A stretch of 64,000 nt of DNA from positions 1 to 64,000 of IMG/VR virus record IMGVR_UViG_3300014205_005221. One strand, 5' to 3'. The position numbers and the translations under genes were made by a program. Below the pieces are notes generated by a model. That model saw only the letters and a list, made by a program, of their open reading frames with translations. It searched no databases and was not told the origin of the DNA. Origin of the DNA: a virus. Taxonomy: Duplodnaviria > Caudoviricetes. Shown in pieces: positions 3,874 through 48,820 of the stretch. The stretch's first letter is position 1, and each line of letters begins with the position of its first letter.

Positions 3874-4056
3874 TCAGCGGCGGTCATCAATGGACGAGGT
3901 GTCCAGGTCCGCGCACACGTAGAACAGCGACCCGGACGCCGTCCAGCACGATCGGTCGTCCGCAGCCTGCACCTCGGGGGCGATGACCGACAGCACGGCC
4001 AACACAAAGATCAGCGAGCCGAGGGTGCCGACCAGGTAGCGCACGGTGTTCGTCAT
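3874..4056 (-). CDS. MTNT-tagged small secreted or membrane protein
   Basis: tag ATG 4056; hydrophobic N-terminus ending VQA-A. Confidence 0.7.
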   Translation of the reverse strand: MTNTVRYLVGTLGSLIFVLAVLSVIAPEVQAADDRSCWTASGSLFYVCADLDTSSIDDRR

Positions 4057-4099
4057 GCGCATGACATTACAGCATGTCAGCAATACAAGCAAGTCGAGA

Positions 4100-4353
4100 T
4101 TGTCGAATAGGCAGGAATGGGGCGGCGCTGCGTGGGGCTGTCGAAACGCGTAGCGGTGGCATGTAGGGGGGTTGTCGAAATGGCGCGGCACGACGTGCAC
4201 GGACAGGGGAGGGGCTGTCGAACTGGGCCGACGTGACACGGCGCGACTCGGCGTGGGTCGTCGAGATGGCCGGGGACGAATGGAAGTGCACCGGGTTGAC
4301 GTGGGTCGTCGGGAGAGATGCGGCGGACGGCGGGATCAGGGGCGGACCTGTCA
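4100..4353 (-). repeat. pentamer-periodic array C (about 6 CGAC-delimited units)
   Basis: GTC(G) delimiters on + strand at 4102, 4140, 4174, 4217, 4260, 4308, 4350; G every 5 nt between them. Confidence 0.8.
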
Positions 4354-4424
4354 AGGGTTTAGCCTGCCCGACAAGCGGGACTTAGAGCAGCCGGAACCTA
4401 TCTCGGCCACCCCAGTCCTACCCC
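4350..4424 (-). promoter_or_regulatory. GGG-TAGGAC promoter plus conserved structured leader of array C
   Basis: homologous to 30500-30580 and 32922-32997. Confidence 0.7.
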
Positions 4425-4425
4425 A

Positions 4426-5031
4426 TCACCAGGCCAACCGAGCCGTCCGCACCCAACTCTCGACCTCGTCGAGATGGTGATCCTCGATGCCGGTCGACGG
4501 GTCCACGTGCAACAACAACGTGGGCAGGTTGCGGCGAGCGCGATCCCACCCGGACAGCTCACGAGCACGGATCTTGCGCGGCGAGTTGAAGCTGTCGTCG
4601 AGCCAGCACAGCGGACGACCAGCAGCGAAGTCGATCATCGCCGGAAACTTCCACAGGTCACGACGCGGGTGCCCGTGGAAATCCACCCACCGCAGCCGAG
4701 GAAGACCCAGAGCCGGTCCGATGACCGTGTTGCAGTTGTGTTCCCACAGCGATGCCCAGACCAGCTCCACATCCGACTCCCGCGACGTCCACGCCAGCGC
4801 GTCCCCGTGCCAGCCCGCCAGATCCAGCCGGGAATACGGGTGCCACGTCGAGCCCGGACGATACGAGATCCGATCCCGAAAGCTCACCGGGCGGTAGCCG
4901 CCCTGCTCCTTGGCATCGAGCTTGAGCTGCTTGAGCGGACGGGCGTACGCGTTGAGGGGACCGTCCACGTCGAGAGCAACGATCGGGGTCGGGAGAGTGG
5001 GCTTGTGGTAGGTACGTCGGGTGTTCGTCAT
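4426..5031 (-). CDS. HAD-superfamily phosphatase (RNA-repair-associated type), MTNT-tagged
   Basis: LDVDGPL motif I, LVWASLW, WLDD; tag ATG 5031. Confidence 0.8.
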   Translation of the reverse strand: MTNTRRTYHKPTLPTPIVALDVDGPLNAYARPLKQLKLDAKEQGGYRPVSFRDRISYRPGSTWHPYSRLDLAGWHGDALAWTSRESDVELVWASLWEHNCNTVIGPALGLPRLRWVDFHGHPRRDLWKFPAMIDFAAGRPLCWLDDSFNSPRKIRARELSGWDRARRNLPTLLLHVDPSTGIEDHHLDEVESWVRTARLAW

Positions 5032-27981: not shown

Positions 27982-28116
27982 GGCAGGGTGTGCTTTATCC
28001 GTACACCACACCGCGAATCCAGAAACTATACAGCTGTACACACTGTACCGCTTCCTCGGGGCTGCGCAAACCCTTTTGGCGATGGCCCAGGGACTTGAAC
28101 CCGGCCCCTCCCTGCC
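27982..28116 (-). ncRNA. permuted tRNA-like RNA 3
   Basis: GGCAGGG-T arm-CATCGC ... GCGGTG-TG-D arm-CCCTGCC. Confidence 0.7.
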
Positions 28117-28139
28117 CTTAGCTATGAACTTATCAACTA

Positions 28140-28204
28140 GAGAAAATCTAGCATTTAGCTGCTTGCTTGTCAACACCTGCTTGGCGCAGACCCTGTCCTA
28201 CCCC
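28140..28204 (-). promoter_or_regulatory. tandem promoters of tRNA/ncRNA cluster 2
   Basis: TTGACA-N17-TAGATT and an upstream GGG-TAGGAC. Confidence 0.6.
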
Positions 28205-28217
28205 GCCAACGAGCGGA

Positions 28218-28523
28218 TCAGACGTACTCTGCCGGATCAATCTTCACGAACGCCGACGGGATCAGCTCGATCGAACGCACCCAGGAACGGTCCTTCGAGA
28301 TCCGCTCCGCCATCGAACGATTGAGGTTAGCCTGCGCCGATCCCATACCACGCTGCATGCGACGGCCATTACGCTGCAGCGGATTGTAGAACGCCACCCT
28401 GCCCTGCTCGTCAAGCAGCCACCAGTAATTCTTGTAGCACATCACGATGCCCGCAGGCGAATCGGTCAGCTCTGCCACAGAAATCCAGACATAGTGATCC
28501 AGAGGAATCTCGGTGTTCGTCAT
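28218..28523 (-). CDS. MTNT-tagged hypothetical protein
   Basis: TTGACA-N17-TAAGGT-N6-ATG. Confidence 0.8.
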   Translation of the reverse strand: MTNTEIPLDHYVWISVAELTDSPAGIVMCYKNYWWLLDEQGRVAFYNPLQRNGRRMQRGMGSAQANLNRSMAERISKDRSWVRSIELIPSAFVKIDPAEYV

Positions 28524-28559
28524 GTGACTACCTTACCGTTCTTGTCAGCAGTTGTCAAC

Positions 28560-29471
28560 TCACCGGCGGTCGTCATCCATGAAGTTCTTCAGAGCCGACT
28601 TCGCGATCGGGCCCAGGAACTCGAACACCGAACTCAGATCCGGCGCGTCCTTCCCGGCCTTGTCCGTAGCACCCGGGTCAGCGGCACGCTCAGCCTTCAG
28701 CGCCTCCAGCTCGGCCTCCAGGCCCGCAATACGCGTGCGCGCCTTGCCGACCTCCTCGTGCAGGTGCAGAGCGTTCTTGCCTTCAACATCGCGCTGCTGA
28801 ATCGCTGCGGAAAGCTGCTGAGCGAGAGCCATGTTCCTCTCGTCCAACTCATTGGCTTCGCGGACCGCCTCGTCACGCTCCTTGGTCAGAGCCAGGCCCT
28901 TGCGATACGCGGTCCGATACGACTCACGCACATCGTCGAGCTGCGTCTTCAGACCAGCCACCTGACCGCGCAGCTTCAGAATCTCTTCAAACCGCTGCTT
29001 CTGATCACGTCCCTGACTTCCGGTCAAAGGCGCGTACTCCGCGTCAGCCTTACGAACCCTCTCGATAAGAACCTTCTTATCACGATTCAGGTCGTGCAGA
29101 CGATCCGTAGCCGCCTCAATGACCTCCAACGGCTCCGCCTCGCCCAACCGATCCTGATCAACCGGGGCCAGACCCTCCAACAGAGCCGCAGCAGCATCCC
29201 GCAGCTTGCCCTGCTCGATCATCCGGGACGTGTTGTCGAGATCGGTGTTCGCTTCCTGCGTTTCGGCCTGGCGCTTCCACAGGTTCGCCAGCTCGCGAAG
29301 CGCGTGGTGCGGAGCAGGCTCAGCCGACTCCAGACCACGGCGCACCGCGTCCCACAGCATCTCCGACTTGGCAGACGGGACATGCGACAGCGGCTTACCG
29401 TTTTCGTCGAAGACATCCGGGTGCATCGCAGCCGCTGCCTTACGAACCTGCCATTCCTGGATGTTCGTCAT
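28560..29471 (-). CDS. coiled-coil protein, tag variant MTNI
   Basis: heptad-rich; GGG-TAGGAC-N6-ATG. Confidence 0.75.
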   Translation of the reverse strand: MTNIQEWQVRKAAAAMHPDVFDENGKPLSHVPSAKSEMLWDAVRRGLESAEPAPHHALRELANLWKRQAETQEANTDLDNTSRMIEQGKLRDAAAALLEGLAPVDQDRLGEAEPLEVIEAATDRLHDLNRDKKVLIERVRKADAEYAPLTGSQGRDQKQRFEEILKLRGQVAGLKTQLDDVRESYRTAYRKGLALTKERDEAVREANELDERNMALAQQLSAAIQQRDVEGKNALHLHEEVGKARTRIAGLEAELEALKAERAADPGATDKAGKDAPDLSSVFEFLGPIAKSALKNFMDDDRR

Positions 29472-29488: not shown

Positions 29489-30241
29489 TCAGCTAGAGAT
29501 AACGCCGTGCTTAGTGGCCGCGTCGATCCAGCTCTGCCACTCGTCGACCATCAGATCGGCGAACGCCAGCTCGGCGATGCCCTGCGGGTCCGGAATGTCC
29601 TTAGCGTCGATGTTGTCGAGCAGCCTATCCTTCTCCGTGGCGTCGTCCAGCTCCTGCAGGAAGTCGACCGGGCGCAGCGACAGGAACTTGATGAACACCG
29701 GGTACCCGGCCAGCTCGTAGGCTACCTTCTTGGTGGCGCGCTTGTCCTCGCGGTTCGGAGACCCGTCACCGATGACAACCGCGAACACCGGGTAATCCGA
29801 CTTCTCGGCAATAGCCTTGAGCGCCTCCAGCGGAGCCGACATGACCGTCGAGCCCATCTCGTGGCGGCGCCAAATCTGCGAGTCGACCACGCCCTGATAG
29901 TTGTCCACGGTCACCGTGACAGCAGGGTAGAGACGGCTGTCGAACGCGATCACCGGGATCTCGCCGTCAGCATCGACCTGCAGCGAAAACGCCAGCACAC
30001 GCTCGACCAGAGCCTGCACCGCGCCGTTGTGGTAGTCGTAGTTCATCGAACCGGAGTGATCGAGCAGCAGCACTACCTGCGCCCGCATGCCGGACAGCCC
30101 CGCCTTCGACAGCGAGATACCAACCTTGTCGGCACGCTTCTTCAGATCGATGCGGGACTCACCGAGCGAATCCAGATCGAACGCCGGAGCGCCCGCCGGA
30201 TCCTTCGTAAGCTTGACGGTCTTCTTCACCATGTCAGGCAT
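29489..30241 (-). CDS. vWA domain protein (Ter-cluster / TerF-associated type)
   Basis: MIDAS DHSGSM, GDG, FLQELDD..RLLDN. Confidence 0.8.
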   Translation of the reverse strand: MPDMVKKTVKLTKDPAGAPAFDLDSLGESRIDLKKRADKVGISLSKAGLSGMRAQVVLLLDHSGSMNYDYHNGAVQALVERVLAFSLQVDADGEIPVIAFDSRLYPAVTVTVDNYQGVVDSQIWRRHEMGSTVMSAPLEALKAIAEKSDYPVFAVVIGDGSPNREDKRATKKVAYELAGYPVFIKFLSLRPVDFLQELDDATEKDRLLDNIDAKDIPDPQGIAELAFADLMVDEWQSWIDAATKHGVISS

Positions 30242-30255
30242 TCAATGCTCCAGGT

Positions 30256-30504
30256 TAGTCGGAAAGAGCGGGGCGGGGACACGCTGTGAGGGATTGTCGA
30301 TGAGAAACGGCTAGATCGTGATAGGGCAAGTCGAAGTGATCAGAGCGGAGCTGTTCGGTGGTGAACGTGGTCTGTCGATTGGCACGGGCAGATTCCGGAG
30401 GGTCCGGGTGCCGGGCGGGGTTGTCGAGAAGCAGCGGTTCGTTCGGGCGCGTACGTGGTCAGTCAAATTGCGCAGACGCGTTCCGGGATACGAAGGGTAG
30501 TCGA
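30256..30504 (-). repeat. pentamer-periodic array B (about 6 units)
   Basis: GTC(G) at 30258, 30296, 30330, 30374, 30423, 30462, 30500. Confidence 0.8.
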
Positions 30505-30580
30505 AGGGCTTAGCCCAGCCCGAAAGCTCCGGGACTCAGGGGCGGCCGGTGCCTAACTCCAGCCGCCCCTGTCCTACCCC
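30500..30580 (-). promoter_or_regulatory. GGG-TAGGAC promoter plus structured leader of array B
   Basis: GGGGCGGCTGG-AGTTAGGCA-CCGGCCGCCCC hairpin, TGAGT, second hairpin, TAAGCCCTTCGAC. Confidence 0.7.
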
Positions 30581-30583
30581 AGA

Positions 30584-31342
30584 TCAGGCGCTAGCGGCCG
30601 TCTTACGACGAGCAGCAGGCTTCTTCGACGAACCCGTCACCTTCGCCCCCGCCTTGCCAACCTCAACACGATCCCAGTTGACAATGCGGTACTTGCCGAA
30701 CGACTGCGAACGGCTCGCACCGATACCCTGCTCCTCACCGGTCAGCCAGATCATGGCCCACTCGGTGTCGGTGAACGCCCAGTCCGAGAGCACCGTGAAG
30801 TTCAGATCGACCTCGTGACAAATCTCCTCGTACTGAATGCCGGTGCCGCGCCAGGTGTGCACGAACCGCTGCACGATCTCATCGTGCTCCAGGACAGACT
30901 CACCGTCCCGGGTCAGATAGATGCGGTCGTCGTCCACGACGATGTGCTCCGCGAGGAACCCGAGCAAACCCTTGTTGGTCACGCCCCAGCCACGCTGGTT
31001 GAGCTTGCCCGCAGCGACGGCAACGTTGGCCGCCTCCTTGAGCGCCGCCTTCAGCTGACGACCTTCGATGTAAAGACCGTGCTGGTCCCGGCGAAAACCG
31101 TTGAGGTGCTTCGCCGAACCGACCAGAGCAACAGCCTCGTCAGCCGTGACACCACGCTCGGTCATAACCTTGGCGACCTCCTCACGAATCAGATCGTCGG
31201 AGGTGCCGAGCTTCGACCGGAGATGACCCTCAATGACCTTGGGATCGGTCGGAGTGCCGCCAGCGATGGCCCGGACGTGGAGGGTGCCGTTGAACTTGTA
31301 CGGCCACGCCTGTCCACGGAACTGCTCGAAAACGCTATCCAT
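30584..31342 (-). CDS. Cas7/Csm3-like RAMP-fold RNA-binding protein (stand-alone)
   Basis: LYIEGRQLKAALKEAA resembles the RAMP Y-I-P-G-S-S-L-K-G motif; C-terminal Gly loop GIGASRSQSFGKY. Confidence 0.65.
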   Translation of the reverse strand: MDSVFEQFRGQAWPYKFNGTLHVRAIAGGTPTDPKVIEGHLRSKLGTSDDLIREEVAKVMTERGVTADEAVALVGSAKHLNGFRRDQHGLYIEGRQLKAALKEAANVAVAAGKLNQRGWGVTNKGLLGFLAEHIVVDDDRIYLTRDGESVLEHDEIVQRFVHTWRGTGIQYEEICHEVDLNFTVLSDWAFTDTEWAMIWLTGEEQGIGASRSQSFGKYRIVNWDRVEVGKAGAKVTGSSKKPAARRKTAASA

Positions 31343-31389
31343 TTTTACTGTGCCTCCTGGGCATCTTGGTAATGGATGTGTTTGCTTTC

Positions 31390-31938
31390 CTATGCCGGAA
31401 TGGTCACAGGAGCCTTAACAATCGAGCGCATCAGCCTGTCATACTCAGACTCGGTGAATACGCTCGACACCGTGCCGTCTCCTACCCGGGAAGCAACAGC
31501 CCGGTGGAACGCGGCAAGCATGCGCGAAGTGTTCGCAGAAACCTCATACCGGTCCGCGACAAAAAGACAATCCGCAGCCGTCATCTCGGCAACACGACGC
31601 TGAGTATCCATACCGTCCACCACATAACGCTGGTCGAACGGAGACATCGCTGCGACGTCACCAGTCTGCTCGAACTCCTTCGCAGCGCGAGCGAAAGCTC
31701 CCGCCACCGCATGCGCACGAGCGCGAGCCCGGCGGGAACCGATCACACGGGTGATCTGCTCACGCAGGATGGACTCCGCCCGCGCCTCCAGCCACGCGGT
31801 CAGCACCTCGGGAGACGTCTCGCGCAACGTCGCCACGATATTCGCTGCCGCTACAGCAGGAATGACGTCTTCCTCTGCTTCAAGAAAGTCTCTGATGAAC
31901 GAATTGATGTACTCATCAGGAGATGCTACTTCGATCAC
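31390..31938 (-). CDS. hypothetical helical protein, upstream partner of the RAMP-like gene
   Basis: GGG-TAGGAG-N6-GTG; lies between array A and the RAMP-like gene. Confidence 0.7.
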   Translation of the reverse strand: MIEVASPDEYINSFIRDFLEAEEDVIPAVAAANIVATLRETSPEVLTAWLEARAESILREQITRVIGSRRARARAHAVAGAFARAAKEFEQTGDVAAMSPFDQRYVVDGMDTQRRVAEMTAADCLFVADRYEVSANTSRMLAAFHRAVASRVGDGTVSSVFTESEYDRLMRSIVKAPVTIPA

Positions 31939-31972
31939 AACACTCTCCTACCCGATGACCAGCGAAAAAGGA

Positions 31973-32926
31973 ACGTCGACGTGACACGGGGTGCGCGGAG
32001 ACGCGACGGGCTGAGGCGGAAAGTCGAACCGGCGAGGCACGACAGGAGCGGATGCAGAGCTGCGCAGTCGAAGGGGTCGCGGTGCGTAGCGGCGGGAGGA
32101 TCGAGGGTTGTCGAACTGAACTGGGATGCAAGGAACCCGAGCGGAGTGGGGCTGTCGAGTGGGGGCGACCAGAGATGGGCAGGTGCCGGGAAGTCGGATG
32201 GATAAGGGCAGGCAAGGGATGTGTTGTCGGACTGACTCAGGGGCGCGTTGCGAAAGCGCGGGGAAGACTCGGGACGTCGACGGGCCAGCGGTGTCGAGAC
32301 GGGGGATGTCATGAGATAAGGGGTGGGCGGGGACAAAGATGGCATGGGCAGTCGAGAAGACGTGGGACGGCAGTGAAAAGTCGACGGGTGCTGAAGTGAA
32401 TTGTTCTGGCAAGGGTAGTCGTAACACTGGGTAGTCGAATGGAGGCGAAGCGGCCAGAAGCGCGGCGGCTTGGAGTTGTCAGAAGGATCGGGCTGCGGCG
32501 GCTTGGAGTTGTCAGAAGGATCGGGCTGCATGCGCAAGGGGCGGTGGGGGGTTGTCGTGTGAATTGACAGGAGAAGGGGCGGAGCTGGGTTGTCGGCACG
32601 GGACGCGGCTTGAGATGACCCGGATAGTCGCAGCGGGTGGGCGAGATCAAATGTGGGGAGACATGTCGATGCGCGGCGCGGTGGGCGCGAGCAGGCGTGA
32701 CGATGGATTGTCGAAACGGCTGGTCAGGGCGGGAAGACGACTTGACGATGTCGAGCGGAAGGAAGGGGCAGGGCATGCCAGGGAGTGGTACGGGATGTCG
32801 AAGCGAGCCGGACAGGCGCGAGATGACCAGAAACGACTTGTCGAAACGGCGGGGCAGGGCGCGCGGTGGCGAGCGTGGTCGAAACGGAGGGATCGCGGAC
32901 CGTGCTGACGAGACCAGACATGTCGA
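31973..32926 (-). repeat. pentamer-periodic array A (about 22-25 units)
   Basis: GTCG delimiters mostly 33, 38-39, 43-44 or 48 nt apart; G every 5 nt on + strand. Confidence 0.85.
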
Positions 32927-32997
32927 GGGCTTACCCTGCCGCGATGCGGACTTAGTGGGCCGGGCGCCTAACTCCCGGAGACACAACAATTCTACCC
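32922..32997 (-). promoter_or_regulatory. GGG-TAGAAT promoter plus structured leader of array A
   Basis: CCGGG-AGTTAGGCG-CCCGG, CTAAGT, CCGC/GCGG, TAAGCCCTCGAC. Confidence 0.7.
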
Positions 32998-33039: not shown

Positions 33040-34809
33040 TCAGGAACGCTGTTCGATCCGCTCCTTGGCGTCCGGAGAAACCGTGAGACCGAACCGCTCA
33101 GCCACGTCCAACACAGCCGCACGCGCGAGCACAATCCGCACCTTCTCGAAACCCGCGTAGTCCGCGCGGTAGCGCATCTTCGGGTCACCGAACGGCAGCT
33201 CCTGCTGCGCCTTGACCAACTCCGGGTTGTACTTGGTCCCCGTCATGATCACGCGGTCCTCGTCTTCCGGGTCGCACATGACGTTGCAGATCTGCGACTC
33301 GGACACGTCCGCCAGCACCGTCACGACGTCGGTCAGGAACACCCGCTCGCCCTCAGCAGGCTTCGTGAGCGGCTCGATCCACGGCGTCAGCGCCGACGAG
33401 TCGACATACTGCTTGCCGCGCGTCACAGCCACGTAGGCCAGCCGCAGCTCCGGAGCCGAGAGACCCTCCTCCGACATCGGCATCGGAAAGTCAGACGCCA
33501 ACTTGACCGAATTCCACTCGCGACCCTTGCTCTTGTGAGCAGTGCTGATCAGCAGCTGCGCGGCACGCTCGGGAACCGCACGCTCGACAGCGGCGAGAAT
33601 GACCTGCGGAGTGTGGTCGTCAACGAGGTTGACCAGCGTCTGCAGGTCACGCGCCTCCTTGTCCTCAGTGACGTACTCACGAACCTGATTCCACGACTCG
33701 AACGCCCGAAGCTCCGGGTGATCTGTCGGACGGCCCTCCGTGAGGTCCAAAGCAGCCTGTGCCAGCCACTGCACCGCCTGGGTACCGCCGACCAGACCCG
33801 CCCGGATGCCCGACATCTGCGCCGTGAGCAGCCGCGAGACCGCCTCGGCGTTGGTGCGGCACAGGACGGTGTCCGGGTTGTCCAGGAACGCCAGCGCAGA
33901 GGACTCCGGTCCGAGACCCTGCAACTGATACGGCGTCTCCAGCAGCGACAGGATGCGATTGGCCTCATCAGCAATGGACTGGCCGAACCGGAACGACGCG
34001 GTCAGCGGAAGCCGGTACTCGGCATCGAACTGGTCGAGCGCGTCGATCGCACCACGCCACGCGTAGATCTGCTGGTTGCTGTCACCGTTCGGGATCAGCT
34101 GAACGCCGTGATCGGTCTGCATGCGCTGCACGATGCTCATGACCACCGGGTCCGCATCCTGCGCCTCATCAAAGAGAACGACCTCGCCCGGAAGTCGGAA
34201 ATTCTTGTCCATGCTGGCGAGCTTCAGGTAGTGGTCGTGCATGAAACGGAGCTGACCCCTGCCCGAGGTGATGTCAGCCCAAGCACGCTGCACGTACGGG
34301 AACACGAACTCCTGCAGCGCCTTGCGCGGCTCGGGAAGATCCATACCCGGAACGCGGGGGATGTGGTGCATGCCGGGCTCAGGAGCGTCGGAAGCGCAGA
34401 ACCGAGCCACCGACTCCATGACCAGACCAGCCAGCTGACGGTCGCGAAGCTTGAAGTCGCCGAACACGAAGTCCTCGCGGATGCGCAGGATCTGCGCCTG
34501 CTTCCAACGCGGGACACGCTCCTGGCTCTGCAGCCGGTCCAGCAGCTCCGGACGGCTCGCCTTGATGTGGTGGTAGGCGAAGCTATGCGCGGTCGCCGCC
34601 GTGACGTTGCGCGGGAACCTGCGCTTGGCCTCATCGGCAATCGACTTGTTGAACGCGATGTAGCAGAAGCTCTTCTCAGCGTTCTCCCGAGAGATCAGCT
34701 CCAGGGTCGACGTCTTGCCGGTACCGGCAAGCGCCTCTACCACCACGTCCTTGCCGGTCGCAGCCGCGTCCATGATGTCGCACTGCTCACTTGTAGGCTT
34801 GAAAGCCAT
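33040..34809 (-). CDS. UvrD/Rep-like SF1 helicase
   Basis: ALAGTGKTST, DEAQD, GDSNQQIYAWRGA, STAHKSKGRE, YVAVTR. Confidence 0.92.
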   Translation of the reverse strand: MAFKPTSEQCDIMDAAATGKDVVVEALAGTGKTSTLELISRENAEKSFCYIAFNKSIADEAKRRFPRNVTAATAHSFAYHHIKASRPELLDRLQSQERVPRWKQAQILRIREDFVFGDFKLRDRQLAGLVMESVARFCASDAPEPGMHHIPRVPGMDLPEPRKALQEFVFPYVQRAWADITSGRGQLRFMHDHYLKLASMDKNFRLPGEVVLFDEAQDADPVVMSIVQRMQTDHGVQLIPNGDSNQQIYAWRGAIDALDQFDAEYRLPLTASFRFGQSIADEANRILSLLETPYQLQGLGPESSALAFLDNPDTVLCRTNAEAVSRLLTAQMSGIRAGLVGGTQAVQWLAQAALDLTEGRPTDHPELRAFESWNQVREYVTEDKEARDLQTLVNLVDDHTPQVILAAVERAVPERAAQLLISTAHKSKGREWNSVKLASDFPMPMSEEGLSAPELRLAYVAVTRGKQYVDSSALTPWIEPLTKPAEGERVFLTDVVTVLADVSESQICNVMCDPEDEDRVIMTGTKYNPELVKAQQELPFGDPKMRYRADYAGFEKVRIVLARAAVLDVAERFGLTVSPDAKERIEQRS

Positions 34810-34899
34810 GCTAGCTCCTGAAGCTGGGGCGGATTTTTCTCCGCCGCGATGAAAAGAGCTTAGCATGCTCGCAGAGACATGCAAGCTTGACTTGCTGAC

Positions 34900-46225: not shown

Positions 46226-48697
46226 TCAGACGAGCCGCCTGGCGCCGGACAAATCCGGGCCGCCCTGTCGCTGCTTGACCGCCGACGTAGGAACCGTCGG
46301 CATAGCGACCGGCTGCGGTGCATCAGGAGGTGTCGACACCGTGGGCATCGGAACCGGAGGCGGCCCACTCAACTCGACCTGCGGCATGGGGGCAGGCTTG
46401 GGCAACGGAGCTGTCACCGGTACGTCCTCGGGATCCACAGGCTCCTCGGCAACTTCAGGAGCGTGACCGTCCCCCTCCGGATCATCAACCAACTTCGGCT
46501 GCAGGTCCGCGATGTCCATGCTCAACTCAGCACGAGCACGGGCCGAAAGCTTGGCGCCCCACTCCGGATCGAAATCCGCCAAATCCAACACGTTTCCGAG
46601 CCCCTGCAGCTGCGGCCCCTTCTCGCTCGACTTCATCTGCGGGTGATACAGATCATCGGGGAAATACCAAAACGCGCCCGACTTCCGTACGATCTTGGAC
46701 GCCTCCAGCACCCGCATTGCAGCGTGCGCATCGGAGAACCCTTGGCCCAACACAAGATACAACTGGGCCGCCTGCATCGGCTTGCCGACTTTGTTCTTGG
46801 TCACCAGCGCCTGGCTCATCACCGAGTGCGTCTCGTTGATCTTCTCGCCCGACAGCGGGTCGACGCGCTCGCCCTTGAACTGCTTCACGATCTTGAACTG
46901 CACACGCTGCGAGCTGTAGAACTTCAGACCCGAGCCTCCCGGCGTAGTCGTCCGCTTGGGCATGCCCGGACGGGTGGGGCCGGTCTCGATGACGTCGCGC
47001 TCGTGATTGATGAAAATAGCAGCGGTGCCGGTCTTCGCCAGGAACGAAATCATCTTGGACAATTCGTTCTGCAGCAACCGAGCACGCTCCATAGCGGTGG
47101 TACGGGACTCGCCGTCCTCCTCCACCAGCTTGCGCGGAGCCATCGCCGCCACCGAATCGAAGATGGCCAGGCCCAGCTGTCCGGTGCGGATCGCCTGCGA
47201 CGCCACGGACATGCCCTGCTCCAGCGATGCGGCTGGGTACGGCTTGAACAGGTCGCGGTTGTCGACGTCCACACCCAGAGCCCGGAGATAGGGCTTGTCG
47301 AGAGCCTGCTCGAAGTCGACGTAAAGAACCGGCAGACCCATCTTCATGCACTCAGCGGCGCACTGAGCGGCCGTCGTGGTGTTGTGCGTCGGAATAAAGT
47401 CATCGGTCACAAACAACTTGCTCAAAGCGGACACCGAGATGCACTGCGCTTCAGCTCGACGAGAGAACTCCACCGACACCAGCACACGCGGGCGCATACC
47501 ATCGACCCAACCTGGACGCTCTCCGGTCTGCGAGCGTCGCGCCCAACACTCGGCCTTGCGCGCAAGCCGGAACAACGGCGAGGTCCGCGACGTGATCCGC
47601 GCGGTGTAGCACGGGAAATACTCGCCTCCACTCACGCGCACGCCCTTAGGCTGGCGCTGCCCCAAAGTCACCCGGCAGCCGAGCGAACGAGCCAGCCACA
47701 CCACGTCATCGCGAAGCTGTCGTGACGCAGATCCGAAGATCGCTGCACCACCGCCAGCACATGCCTCTGCATCAGTGTCGAGCAACCCCTGCAACACAGC
47801 AAGTCTCGTCTTTGCGGAAGCAATCTTGTAAGACTCAGGAACAAACTTAGTATCCGCCTTGTGTCCCATGACGCCCAACTCGCGCAACGACGCCGTAAGG
47901 GGATTCACCGAGCCGCCACGAGAACCGCACGAGAGACGGTACGACACACCGCGACCTGCGCGGCTTGCCTCGTACAGCTCCACCCCTGCAGGAAGCGTCT
48001 GAGAAACCGCATCAATCAACTCAGAATCAGCTGAAGTGAACAACGCGACGCCGCCCATACCGCCATCGCCGAGCAACAAGCCGAGCAGGTAGGGATCCAG
48101 CGGCAACGGACCCTCAGCGAAGTCCAGGTCCGGGCGCAGCTCCGCATCCAACACGGGACGACACGTCGAGCTGTTGAGCCGTGATGGCACCATCATTTCC
48201 GAGAGCGGCACCACCTTGTGCTCGACAAAAATCTGACGCTCACGACGCACACCACGCCGCTTGGACGACCGTCCTCCCTCCTGCACCCGACGGGACACGC
48301 GATATCGAAACGGCCACAAGTGATCGGCAGTGGACTCACACGTCGAACCGTCCGAAAACGTCAGACGGTAGATATCCATCTCGCCCTGCGGGAAAACGCC
48401 AGTGACCTCTGAAGGCTGTCCCTCAGGATCGATGACAGCATCTCCGACCTGCAGATCACCCATGCGAACATAGCCGGTAGGTGTCAACACCAAGCCGTCC
48501 AACGCAAGCGCCTTGCCTGATTGGCTGAGTCCGTACAGCTCTGCGATGCGCCCGCGCGCGATGCCGCCGCCCAACACAAAATCGAGAGCCAAATTACCGG
48601 TGGGAATGAATCCCTTATCACCGATGACAGACTCGTAGTCCAACTCTTCTTCGGCGTACGCCGCCTGAAGAATGTCATCAAGAGTTTTTACAGCCAC
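46226..48697 (-). CDS. recA: RecA-family recombinase with an intein
   Basis: IPTG..LD..LGGG, ELYG.SQSGK|TT, DSVAAM, FINHER, GGSGLKFYSS.R, KNKVG.P. Confidence 0.92.
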   Translation of the reverse strand: MAVKTLDDILQAAYAEEELDYESVIGDKGFIPTGNLALDFVLGGGIARGRIAELYGLSQSGKALALDGLVLTPTGYVRMGDLQVGDAVIDPEGQPSEVTGVFPQGEMDIYRLTFSDGSTCESTADHLWPFRYRVSRRVQEGGRSSKRRGVRRERQIFVEHKVVPLSEMMVPSRLNSSTCRPVLDAELRPDLDFAEGPLPLDPYLLGLLLGDGGMGGVALFTSADSELIDAVSQTLPAGVELYEASRAGRGVSYRLSCGSRGGSVNPLTASLRELGVMGHKADTKFVPESYKIASAKTRLAVLQGLLDTDAEACAGGGAAIFGSASRQLRDDVVWLARSLGCRVTLGQRQPKGVRVSGGEYFPCYTARITSRTSPLFRLARKAECWARRSQTGERPGWVDGMRPRVLVSVEFSRRAEAQCISVSALSKLFVTDDFIPTHNTTTAAQCAAECMKMGLPVLYVDFEQALDKPYLRALGVDVDNRDLFKPYPAASLEQGMSVASQAIRTGQLGLAIFDSVAAMAPRKLVEEDGESRTTAMERARLLQNELSKMISFLAKTGTAAIFINHERDVIETGPTRPGMPKRTTTPGGSGLKFYSSQRVQFKIVKQFKGERVDPLSGEKINETHSVMSQALVTKNKVGKPMQAAQLYLVLGQGFSDAHAAMRVLEASKIVRKSGAFWYFPDDLYHPQMKSSEKGPQLQGLGNVLDLADFDPEWGAKLSARARAELSMDIADLQPKLVDDPEGDGHAPEVAEEPVDPEDVPVTAPLPKPAPMPQVELSGPPPVPMPTVSTPPDAPQPVAMPTVPTSAVKQRQGGPDLSGARRLV
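47381..48511 (-). mobile_element. intein (377 aa) with LAGLIDADG endonuclease; Ala1, class 3 signature
   Basis: ALALD start; TADHLW; LGLLLGDG and LQGLLDTD; AQCISV; THN|T. Confidence 0.88.
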
Positions 48698-48820
48698 AGA
48701 AAGCTCCTCAGAAAACAAACACGGCCCGGGAGTCGAAGCCATTCCGCCGGGATCTAGCGAGGCGACTCAACCGGGCCGTGCGATAGCGATTATACCCGGC
48801 CGAAAACAAAACAAACAACG

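What the first reader, a model, noticed from the sequence alone, without database searches (positions are those of the whole stretch)
30256..32997. Stand-alone Cas7/RAMP-like gene flanked by pentamer-periodic RNA arrays: candidate non-CRISPR RNA-guided system
Seen: 30584-31342 has RAMP-like motifs (LYIEGRQLKAALKEAA; Gly loop GIGASRSQSFGKY) with no cas operon nearby. Together with one unknown partner (31390-31938) it lies between two non-coding arrays. Units are delimited by CGAC on the predicted transcript and mostly measure 5n+3/4 nt (33-34, 38-39, 43-44, 48-49). Inside, one base recurs every 5 nt, e.g. + strand 32840 gtcgaa acGGC ggGGC agGGC gcGCG gtGGC gaGCG tgGTC and 32797 gtcgaa gcGAG ccGGA caGGC gcGAG atGAC caGAA acGAC ttGTC. 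Known: Cas7-type RAMPs polymerise on guide RNA with a fixed nucleotide step. Inference: each unit is a guide coated by one subunit per pentamer, and the variable positions specify a gapped target. From memory this resembles recently reported viral RAMP plus periodic-repeat (VIPR-type) systems, which should be compared; here the promoter predicts a C-periodic transcript.
Basis: partly seen in the sequence, partly recalled or inferred. Interest (0 to 1): 0.92.

Follow-up and report, generated by a model that had tools for sequence, protein, structure and literature searches.

The report
Phage VIPR guide-RNA system, C-rich arrays
A large phage carries a VIPR system, a CRISPR-related RNA-guided DNA silencer first described in 2026. 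It has one Cas7-like protein, one partner gene and three arrays of about 35 short five-base-step guides, and in this branch the guide RNA appears to be built on C rather than G.

Summary
Gene 30584-31342(-) folds as a Cas7-type RAMP: pLDDT 88.7, with Csm3 and type VII Cas7 as best matches at Z about 11. Its family profile aligns with proven Vipr proteins (SUSP1, PDB 36pp): HHalign probability 94%, E 1e-7.

The flanking non-coding arrays have a real 5-nt rhythm (lag-5 z = 5.0 in the right array, no lag-3 signal). Units are set off by GTCGA on the + strand, and unit lengths are mostly 5n+3 or 5n+4. A third array with the same structured leader lies at 4095-4430.

The same protein, partner and array layout recurs in 65 related phage and actinobacterial loci. 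From 624 units, the gene-sense consensus is CGAC followed by (N-N-S-Y-C)n.

So this is a VIPR system, a kind published in 2026 preprints, and not a new class. The unusual part is polarity. In SUSP1 and in actinophage type II systems, the GGY/NN repeat is on the gene strand. Here the gene strand is C-periodic. Phage promoter motifs, G·U pairs in the leader, and arrays that abut the vipr ribosome-binding site all point to a C-rich transcript. No RNA data could be obtained and no natural target rose above chance.

Earlier follow-ups in this scan reached the same reading on other genomes.

The parts
30584..31342 (-). vipr: 252-aa stand-alone Cas7-like RAMP. Helix 1 is about residues 94-110, the thumb hairpin about 155-186, and the glycine loop 206-216. 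It has a basic disordered C-terminal tail.
   Evidence: AF2 with an 83-sequence alignment gives pLDDT 88.7. Foldseek PDB top hits are type VII Cas7, Csm3 and Cmr4 at E about 5e-7. VIA-align gives Z 10.9-9 to Cas7-family chains. HHalign against a Vipr alignment gives probability 94.2% and E 1.1e-7.
31390..31938 (-). vap-like partner gene (182 aa, helical, with an Arg-rich stretch). It starts at a leaderless GTG at 31938.
   Evidence: A homologue lies upstream of vipr on the same strand in 41 of 65 related loci (alignment A5). It has no Pfam, PDB or Atlas family. It shows no similarity to SUSP1 vap1.
31946..31953 (-). GGGTAGGA promoter-like motif, 7 nt before the vap GTG
   Evidence: Motif list. 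22 of the 40 minus-strand copies have a start codon 6-8 nt downstream.
31975..32926 (-). Right array: about 24 units. In gene sense each unit is CGAC followed by NNSYC pentamers.
32922..32997 (-). Leader of the right array: GGGTAGAA promoter-like motif at 32997-32990, a hairpin with an AGTTAGG loop, and a second hairpin that runs into the first CGAC.
   Evidence: It is preceded by a minus-strand terminator at 33031-33006.
30245..30504 (-). Left array: 5-6 units. It runs into the ribosome-binding site of the vWA/TerF-like gene 29489-30241(-).
   Evidence: Its periodicity is weak.
30500..30586 (-). Leader of the left array, with the GGGTAGGA motif at 30579-30572, just after the vipr stop codon.
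4095..4350 (-). Third array: 5 full units plus 2 short ones.
   Evidence: Lag-5 scan of the window, sequence, unit parse.
4350..4430 (-). Leader of the third array, with the GGGTAGGA motif at 4423-4416.

Best explanation
This is a VIPR (Viral Interference Programmable Repeat) system in the replication region of a roughly 186-kb phage contig.

Shown here:
- a Cas7-like RAMP homologous to Vipr;
- a partner gene that is conserved beside it;
- three non-coding arrays with a 5-nt rhythm.

Inferred:
- Each array is transcribed from the minus (gene) strand, starting at a phage GGGTAGRA promoter and passing through a roughly 70-nt structured leader.
- The precursor is cut at or near each CGAC into about 35 short RNAs of the form 5'-(C)GAC-(N-N-S-Y-C)5-9.
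- Vipr protomers bind one per pentamer. They hold the fixed S-Y-C bases and present the two variable bases.
- The presented bases read double-stranded DNA of rival mobile elements in a gapped way (NNx in the published type II system) and silence it.

In this branch the fixed bases on the gene strand are C-rich rather than GGY, and five of the six aligned positions that contact the GGY bases in SUSP1 Vipr are replaced.
For: Fold and homology:
- RAMP fold with high confidence.
- Profile-profile match to SUSP1, LittleE, MakoManhole, Trine and phiHSIC Vipr: probability 94%, E 1e-7, 134 columns, with the glycine loop and helix 1 in register.
- SUSP1 Vipr is a solved structure, PDB 36pp.

Conserved architecture:
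- Most of the 65 related loci have a 5-nt-periodic stretch beside the gene.
- 624 unique units from 39 loci give CGAC + (NNSYC)n in gene sense. C is 80-90% at position 5. Unit lengths are 5n+3 (254 units) or 5n+4 (162 units).
- The partner gene is present in 41 of 65 loci, usually in the order vap, array, vipr on one strand.

Phage context: DNA polymerase, clamp, exonuclease, RtcB and 13 tRNAs.

Strand:
- GGGTANRA occurs 40 times on the minus strand and once on the plus strand. Copies sit at the gene-sense upstream end of all three arrays, 7 nt before leaderless start codons, and before tRNA clusters.
- The consensus fold of the three leaders is -22.2 kcal/mol on the minus strand, with several G·U pairs. 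It is -8.8 kcal/mol on the plus strand, where those pairs become A·C mismatches.
- In 20 of 51 loci the last CGAC handle lies within 45 nt of the vipr start, directly followed by the ribosome-binding site. That leaves no room for a separate or divergent promoter.
- The gene strand is C-rich (GC skew about -0.5) in every locus except L060. There the array is inverted and a 95-nt spacer appears.

Reference systems: the GGY/NN repeat is on the gene strand in SUSP1, LittleE and MakoManhole.

Base-reading residues of SUSP1 Vipr (named in bioRxiv 10.64898/2026.04.26.720927) align here as D177 to A209, W178 to S210, R138 to E172, E71 to R95 and M72 to Q96. R179 is kept as R211.
Against: - There are no transcript data.
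- The VIPR preprint's text reports only G-containing repeat variants (NNNGG, YNNNG, NNNNG). On the plus strand these units read G-R-S-N-N, which could be one of those variants transcribed antisense to vipr.
- The promoter motif is a sequence pattern, not a mapped start site. If transcription starts 7 nt after it, part of the first leader stem in the left array would not be in the RNA.
- The residue mapping rests on a roughly 22%-identity profile alignment.
- An HMM of this family does not reach the 36pp sequence at E <= 1.
- No guide has a target above chance.
Confidence: 0.66

Rival explanations
1. It is the same VIPR system, but the guide RNAs come from the plus strand, antisense to vipr. 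They are G-periodic, (G-R-S-N-N)n-GUC, which makes them a loose version of the published GGY/NN or NNNGG repeat. Each unit is released after the GUC.
For: - All experimentally shown vrRNAs are G-based (bioRxiv 10.64898/2026.04.26.720920, read).
- On the plus strand the pentamer frame starts right after GTC.
- In L060 the G-rich strand runs the same way as vipr.
Against: - In about 60 loci this reading needs promoters inside the conserved 5' coding region of vipr, and transcription head-on into vap.
- The window has 1 plus-strand copy of the phage promoter motif against 40 on the minus strand, and no sigma-70-like site or plus-strand terminator at the arrays.
- The leader folds far worse on the plus strand.
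- The third repeat position is a pyrimidine in only about 36% of units, so GGY is not met on this strand either.
Confidence: 0.22
2. The arrays are not trans-acting guides. They are cis elements, either long C-rich 5' leaders or DNA iterons, that the RAMP protein binds to control its own and neighbouring operons.
For: - The arrays lie in 5' untranslated positions ahead of vap-vipr, the vWA gene and a small membrane-protein gene.
- No trans target was found.
Against: - The two variable positions carry almost no information while the fixed ones are kept across 624 units. That is the signature of a programmable guide.
- Homologous Vipr proteins are shown to use such RNAs in trans.
- No self-match to the phage genome rises above shuffled controls.
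Confidence: 0.07
3. The periodicity is a by-product of coding sequence or of chance composition.
For: Long ORFs can be drawn across the arrays, for example 32309-32989(-) at 226 aa.
Against: - There is a lag-5 signal but no lag-3 signal.
- Unit lengths are not multiples of 3.
- The same architecture recurs next to the same gene in 65 loci.
Confidence: 0.01

Closest known systems
VIPR type II of Escherichia phage SUSP1 (Vipr, vap1, four vrRNAs; PDB 36pp; bioRxiv 10.64898/2026.04.26.720920 and 10.64898/2026.04.26.720927)
   Same: - A lone small RAMP with helix 1, thumb and glycine loop, and detectable homology.
- A two-gene locus in a phage.
- Flanking non-coding RNA genes with a 5-nt repeat of fixed plus variable bases.
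   Different: - SUSP1 has GGY/NN on the gene strand. Each roughly 100-nt vrRNA has 9-16 repeats and its own structured 3' tail.
- Here the gene strand reads NN-S-Y-C. Units have 5-9 pentamers and abut at a CGAC delimiter, and there is one leader per array.
- The partner gene is unrelated.
- This protein is 252 aa against 195 aa, with a helical insertion at about residues 34-77.
- Five of the six aligned GGY-contact positions differ.
VIPR types with alternative repeats (NNNGG, YNNNG, NNNNG) and 'staggered' vrRNA arrays (same preprint, methods and legends of figs S17, S18)
   Same: - Repeats are degenerate, with fewer fixed bases.
- Units follow each other without spacers, so the end of one marks the start of the next. 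The first C of CGAC closes the last pentamer of the preceding unit.
   Different: The figures and tables are not held. I could not check whether this actinobacterial branch is one of the seven types, or which strand the authors assigned. The text names only G-containing consensus repeats.
Non-canonical VIPR-like 5-mer clusters (GAC/NN, CAC/NN, WGT/NN, TGH/NN) in bioRxiv 10.64898/2026.10.21.760802
   Same: They show that Vipr-like folds go with fixed trinucleotides other than GGY.
   Different: An S-Y-C (CCC-like) core is not among the motifs named in the text. Those arrays are reported with 10 repeats, not as short CGAC-delimited units.
Cas7 backbone subunits of type III and type VII CRISPR effectors (Csm3, Cmr4, Cas7)
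   Same: They give the best structural matches: Z 9-11, Foldseek E about 1e-6. They polymerise on a guide RNA with a fixed step.
   Different: - There is no cas operon, no CRISPR repeat-spacer array and no second RAMP here.
- The step is 5 nt, not 6.
- Sequence identity is about 10-14%.

Membership tests
VIPR system | Vipr protein: a single-RRM RAMP with helix 1, thumb and glycine-rich loop | tested here: met
   Model pLDDT is 88.7. All top PDB matches are Cas7-family RAMPs.
VIPR system | Sequence homology to an experimentally shown Vipr | tested here: met
   HHalign of A1 against A6 (SUSP1 and four relatives) gives probability 94.2% and E 1.1e-7. Against SUSP1 alone it gives only 22.6%. An HMM search against the PDB did not reach 36pp.
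VIPR system | Minimal locus outside any CRISPR-Cas context, with an accessory (vap) gene | tested here: met
   There is no CRISPR repeat family in the window, and Cas1 occurs only on contig C166. The partner gene is conserved in 41 of 65 loci.
VIPR system | Flanking non-coding arrays with a 5-nt repeat of fixed and hypervariable positions | tested here: met
   Information content is about 1.3 bits at position 5 and about 0.02-0.15 bits at positions 1-2.
VIPR system | Repeat consensus GGY/NN on the strand of the vipr gene | tested here: not met
   The gene strand reads N-N-S-Y-C and the opposite strand G-R-S-N-N. SUSP1, LittleE and MakoManhole have GGY/NN on the gene strand. This sets the branch apart as a variant. 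The preprint itself admits other consensus repeats.
VIPR system | Each vrRNA ends in a conserved structured 3' tail | tested here: not met
   Units abut at a CGAC delimiter. There is one structured leader per array instead. The preprint describes tail-less 'staggered' arrays in some types.
VIPR system | vrRNAs are expressed and co-purify with Vipr | not testable with these tools
VIPR system | Guides match rival mobile elements under the 1-nt skip rule | tested here: inconclusive
   The best matches equal those of shuffled guides in the phage, its bin and 65 loci. Exact gapped scans of IMG/VR gave 2, 0, 59 and 11 hits, against 17 for a reversed control. The host's prophages are not known.
VIPR system | Encoded by a virus or provirus | tested here: met
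   The window holds a phage replication module and 13 tRNAs. 55 relatives are in IMG/VR contigs.
CRISPR-Cas type III/VII effector | Cas7 together with other cas genes and a repeat-spacer CRISPR array | tested here: not met
   Only the fold is shared.

The most novel reading that the evidence does not exclude
This large, mostly actinobacterial and actinophage Vipr branch does not read guanines at all. Its guides are sense-strand, C-rich RNAs of the form (C)GAC-(NN-S-Y-C)5-9, cut from leader-driven precursors. The base-holding pocket has been rebuilt (D177A, W178S, R138E, E71R, M72Q in SUSP1 numbering). If so, the VIPR gapped code is independent of the GGY motif, and a second, orthogonal repeat chemistry exists.
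Probability: 0.6. Interest if true: 0.65.

Novelty: new variant of a known kind. Interest (0 to 1): 0.5.

Why it matters
VIPR is a months-old class of RNA-guided DNA recognition. Its published rule is tied to a GGY repeat read by specific Vipr residues.

A widespread branch has at least 1165 proteins at E <= 0.001 and 513 clusters at 50% identity. If that branch uses C-rich repeats, short abutting guides and leader-driven multi-array expression, three things would follow:
- the known repeat code would widen;
- there would be a Vipr orthogonal to the SUSP1 type for tool building;
- it would show how guide arrays are organised and processed without per-guide tails.

As a sighting of a VIPR system it is a further example of a published kind, and this scan has already met the same branch on other genomes.

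Tried and rejected
- **Single-sequence fold.** It was useless, with pLDDT 34. I repeated it with an alignment.
- **Direct sequence searches.** phmmer of the protein against the PDB, and megablast of the locus against phage records, found nothing. tblastn against phage records found only Microcystis phage Mae-JY09 at 35% identity.
- **Leader in other loci.** Simple motifs of the window's leader are not conserved in the other loci, so the leader is specific to this phage.
- **Generic promoter and terminator scans.** They gave nothing beyond chance in the window apart from the helicase terminator. They gave little in L064, L059 and L050.
- **Local target search.** I used 23 in-phase guides with 2 or 3 variable bases and 0-3 skipped bases. 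Searched against the phage contig, the other 397 contigs and the 65 loci, they gave the same best-match fractions as shuffled guides.
- **Exact 18-base gapped patterns.** They gave 2 homologous hits in 45%-GC contigs, and 0 hits. They also gave 0 hits in 390 genomes of the bin's order.
- **Two 16-base patterns.** They gave 59 and 11 hits against 17 for a reversed control.
  - About 30 of the 59 are a single enterobacterial prophage gene.
  - Five to eight hits fall on an LPVTASVS peptide in ORFs that I judged, from memory only, to look like tail-sheath genes.
  - I treat this as chance amplified by homology, not as a target.
- **Partner protein.** No family or fold was found. It is not related to SUSP1 vap1.
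- **Gene beside the inverted L060 array.** It is not a vap homologue. By eye, the vap-like ORF in L060 lies after vipr.
- **Neighbouring genes as accessories.** The UvrD-like helicase is not a conserved partner: it appears in 1 locus of 65. The vWA/TerF-like gene had no homologue in any of the 65 loci.
Full report
**What is there.** All genes around the finding lie on the minus strand. In minus-strand order they are:
- a UvrD-like helicase, 33040-34884, followed by a minus-strand terminator at 33031-33006;
- a non-coding stretch, 32997-31940;
- a 182-aa ORF, 31938-31390;
- a 252-aa ORF, 31342-30584;
- a second non-coding stretch, 30586-30245;
- a vWA/TerF-like gene, 30241-29489.

The window belongs to a 186-kb contig. 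It carries a phage replication module (DNA polymerase, clamp, exonuclease, methyltransferase, RtcB) and 13 tRNAs.

**The observation.** On the plus strand the non-coding stretches break at GTCG into units of mostly 33-50 nt. Of the 22 units of 30-60 nt, 17 have length 5n+3 or 5n+4. A G recurs every fifth base, counted from either end of a unit.

Against dinucleotide shuffles, the right array has lag-5 z = 5.0 and lag-10 z = 3.7, with no lag-3 signal. The left array is weak. The window-wide scan also picked out 4000-4450. This is a third array with the same units and the same roughly 80-nt ending element. The assembly holds one vipr gene and these three arrays only.

**The protein.** It has no Pfam, PHROG or direct PDB sequence match. 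It does have a large family: 1165 proteins at E <= 0.001 in one search and 513 clusters at 50% identity in another. Members named by their sources are Streptomyces, Nocardiopsis, Pseudonocardia and related actinomycetes.

With an 83-sequence alignment the model reaches pLDDT 88.7. Foldseek and an exhaustive structural search both put Cas7-family RAMPs first: type VII Cas7, Csm3, Cmr4, gRAMP and Csf2, at E about 5e-7 and Z 10.9-9.

**Comparison with the literature.** The library holds several 2026 preprints on VIPR systems. They describe a lone ancestral RAMP (Vipr), an accessory gene (vap) and vrRNAs made of GGY/NN pentamers. One protomer binds per repeat, and the NN bases read double-stranded DNA while skipping every third base. 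The preprints name seven types, alternative repeats (NNNGG, YNNNG, NNNNG), 'staggered' arrays and ribozyme-separated arrays. A later preprint reports further non-GGY cores.

I fetched the SUSP1 genome. Its vipr is at 28474-29061(-) and vap1 at 28031-28471(-), and the GGY/NN repeats lie on the gene strand. SUSP1 Vipr is PDB 36pp.

The profile of the window's family against SUSP1 Vipr alone gives a weak but sensible alignment. Against an alignment of SUSP1, MakoManhole, LittleE, Trine and phiHSIC Vipr it gives probability 94.2% and E 1.1e-7 over 134 columns. The protein is therefore a distant member of the Vipr family.

**Conservation of the system.** Sixty-five related loci were fetched, 10 from genomes and 55 from IMG/VR. 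Most have a 5-nt-periodic stretch beside the gene. Pooling 624 unique units from 39 loci gives, on the gene strand, CGAC followed by pentamers N-N-S-Y-C:
- position 5 is C in 80-90% of units;
- position 4 is C or T;
- position 3 is weakly C or G;
- positions 1-2 carry no information.

Unit lengths peak at 28, 33, 38, 43 and 48 nt. In units of length 5n+3, the first C of the next CGAC closes the last pentamer, so neighbouring units overlap in frame. This fits the preprint's description of staggered arrays, but I could not see that figure.

The 182-aa ORF has homologues upstream of vipr on the same strand in 41 of 65 loci, usually with the array in between. It has no recognisable family or fold and is unrelated to SUSP1 vap1.

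**Which strand is the RNA?** This is the one point where the locus departs from the published picture. In SUSP1, and in the high-GC actinophages LittleE and MakoManhole, the G-based repeat is on the gene strand. Here the gene strand is C-rich (GC skew about -0.5) in every locus but one. Four lines of evidence favour transcription of the gene strand.

GGGTANRA occurs 40 times on the minus strand and once on the plus strand. Of the 40 copies, 22 have a start codon 6-8 nt downstream, others precede tRNA clusters, and three sit at the gene-sense upstream end of the three arrays. The one at 32997 comes right after the helicase terminator. From memory, the motif resembles the -10 element (GGGTAT) of sigma-B/F-type promoters.
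2. *Leader structure.* The three leaders share a hairpin with an AG(T/A)TAGG loop and a second hairpin. The consensus fold is -22.2 kcal/mol on the minus strand, with several G·U pairs. It is -8.8 kcal/mol on the plus strand, where these pairs become A·C.
3. *Arrays abutting the ribosome-binding site.* In the related loci the last CGAC-WNCCC handle is followed directly by the ribosome-binding site and start codon of vipr. It lies within 45 nt of the start in 20 of 51 loci and within 100 nt in 36. The array also often lies between co-oriented vap and vipr. The vipr mRNA must therefore start in or before the array, and an antisense promoter would have to lie inside conserved coding sequence.
4. 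*The exception.* In L060 the array is inverted, and a 95-nt spacer separates it from vipr.

None of this is a transcript. I put the C-rich sense reading at about three to one over the G-rich antisense reading.

**Base-reading residues.** The structural preprint names the SUSP1 residues that hold G1, G2 and Y3. In the profile alignment they map as follows:

| SUSP1 residue | This family |
|---|---|
| D177 | A209 (nearly invariant) |
| W178 | S210 |
| R138 | E172 (nearly invariant) |
| E71 | R95 (invariant among close relatives) |
| M72 | Q96 |
| R179 | R211 (kept) |

This fits a changed fixed-base specificity on either strand, because even the plus strand reads G-R-S rather than GGY. It is an inference from a low-identity alignment.

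**Targets.** The double-stranded site implied by a guide is the same whichever strand is the RNA, so I searched with 23 in-phase guides. Every rule tried (2 or 3 variable bases, 0-3 skipped) gave best-match fractions equal to those of shuffled guides. This held in the phage contig, the rest of the bin and the 65 loci.

Exact gapped scans of IMG/VR gave counts in the range of a reversed control once redundant copies are set aside. A scan of 390 genomes of the bin's order gave nothing. No natural target is proposed.

**Verdict.** It is a VIPR system, a kind already in print, belonging to a large branch with three distinctive features: short CGAC-delimited units, a family-specific partner gene and, most likely, C-rich sense-strand guides. 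The window adds three separately promoted arrays that share a structured leader.

Earlier follow-ups in this scan reached the same 'C-rich VIPR' reading on other genomes. I re-derived it here from this window and its relatives.

Noticed in passing
window 4095-4430: A third guide array with the same promoter motif and structured leader lies 26 kb from the vipr gene, ahead of a small membrane-protein ORF (4056-3886, minus strand).
   Followed up: yes
window, whole (for example 13385, 16249, 29486, 31953, 9839, 26400): GGGTANRA occurs 40 times on the minus strand and once on the plus strand. In 22 copies a start codon follows 6-8 nt downstream, so these look like leaderless genes. Other copies precede tRNA clusters. 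From memory the motif resembles the -10 element of sigma-B/F-type promoters.
   Followed up: partly
window 32462-32527: A perfect 33-nt tandem duplication lies inside the right array, where the delimiter reads TGAC instead of CGAC. This suggests that arrays grow by duplication of units.
   Followed up: partly
L069:2603-2955 (Gordonia phage MakoManhole) and L070:2648-3013 (Mycobacterium phage LittleE): These actinophages carry SUSP1-like (type II) Vipr genes. Their GGY/NN vrRNAs are on the gene strand. The vrRNA tails contain a tRNA T-arm-like GGTTCGA(C/T)TCC hairpin, which hints at processing by tRNA-maturation enzymes.
   Followed up: no
window 46226-48742 (-): An 838-aa ORF matches both UvsX/RecA-like recombinase PHROGs (residues 455-617) and terminase, primase or helicase-loader P-loop PHROGs (residues 71-460). 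It may be a fusion or an intein-bearing gene.
   Followed up: no
G000 contig C166:4145-4774: The only Cas1 of the assembly lies on a different, short contig of the bin. It is unrelated to the phage contig.
   Followed up: no
L073, L090, L091, L113, L116 (IMG/VR contigs): The guide at window 4263 decodes on one strand to the peptide LPVTASVS. That peptide is found in ORFs of about 430-525 aa in several high-GC viral contigs. I judged those ORFs to be tail-sheath-like from memory only. The hit counts are in the range of a reversed control, so I treat this as chance.
   Followed up: partly
PP395641.1 37794-38456 (Microcystis phage Mae-JY09): This is the only isolated-phage record with a relative of this Vipr branch (35% identity over 80% of the query). 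The branch therefore reaches cyanophages.
   Followed up: no
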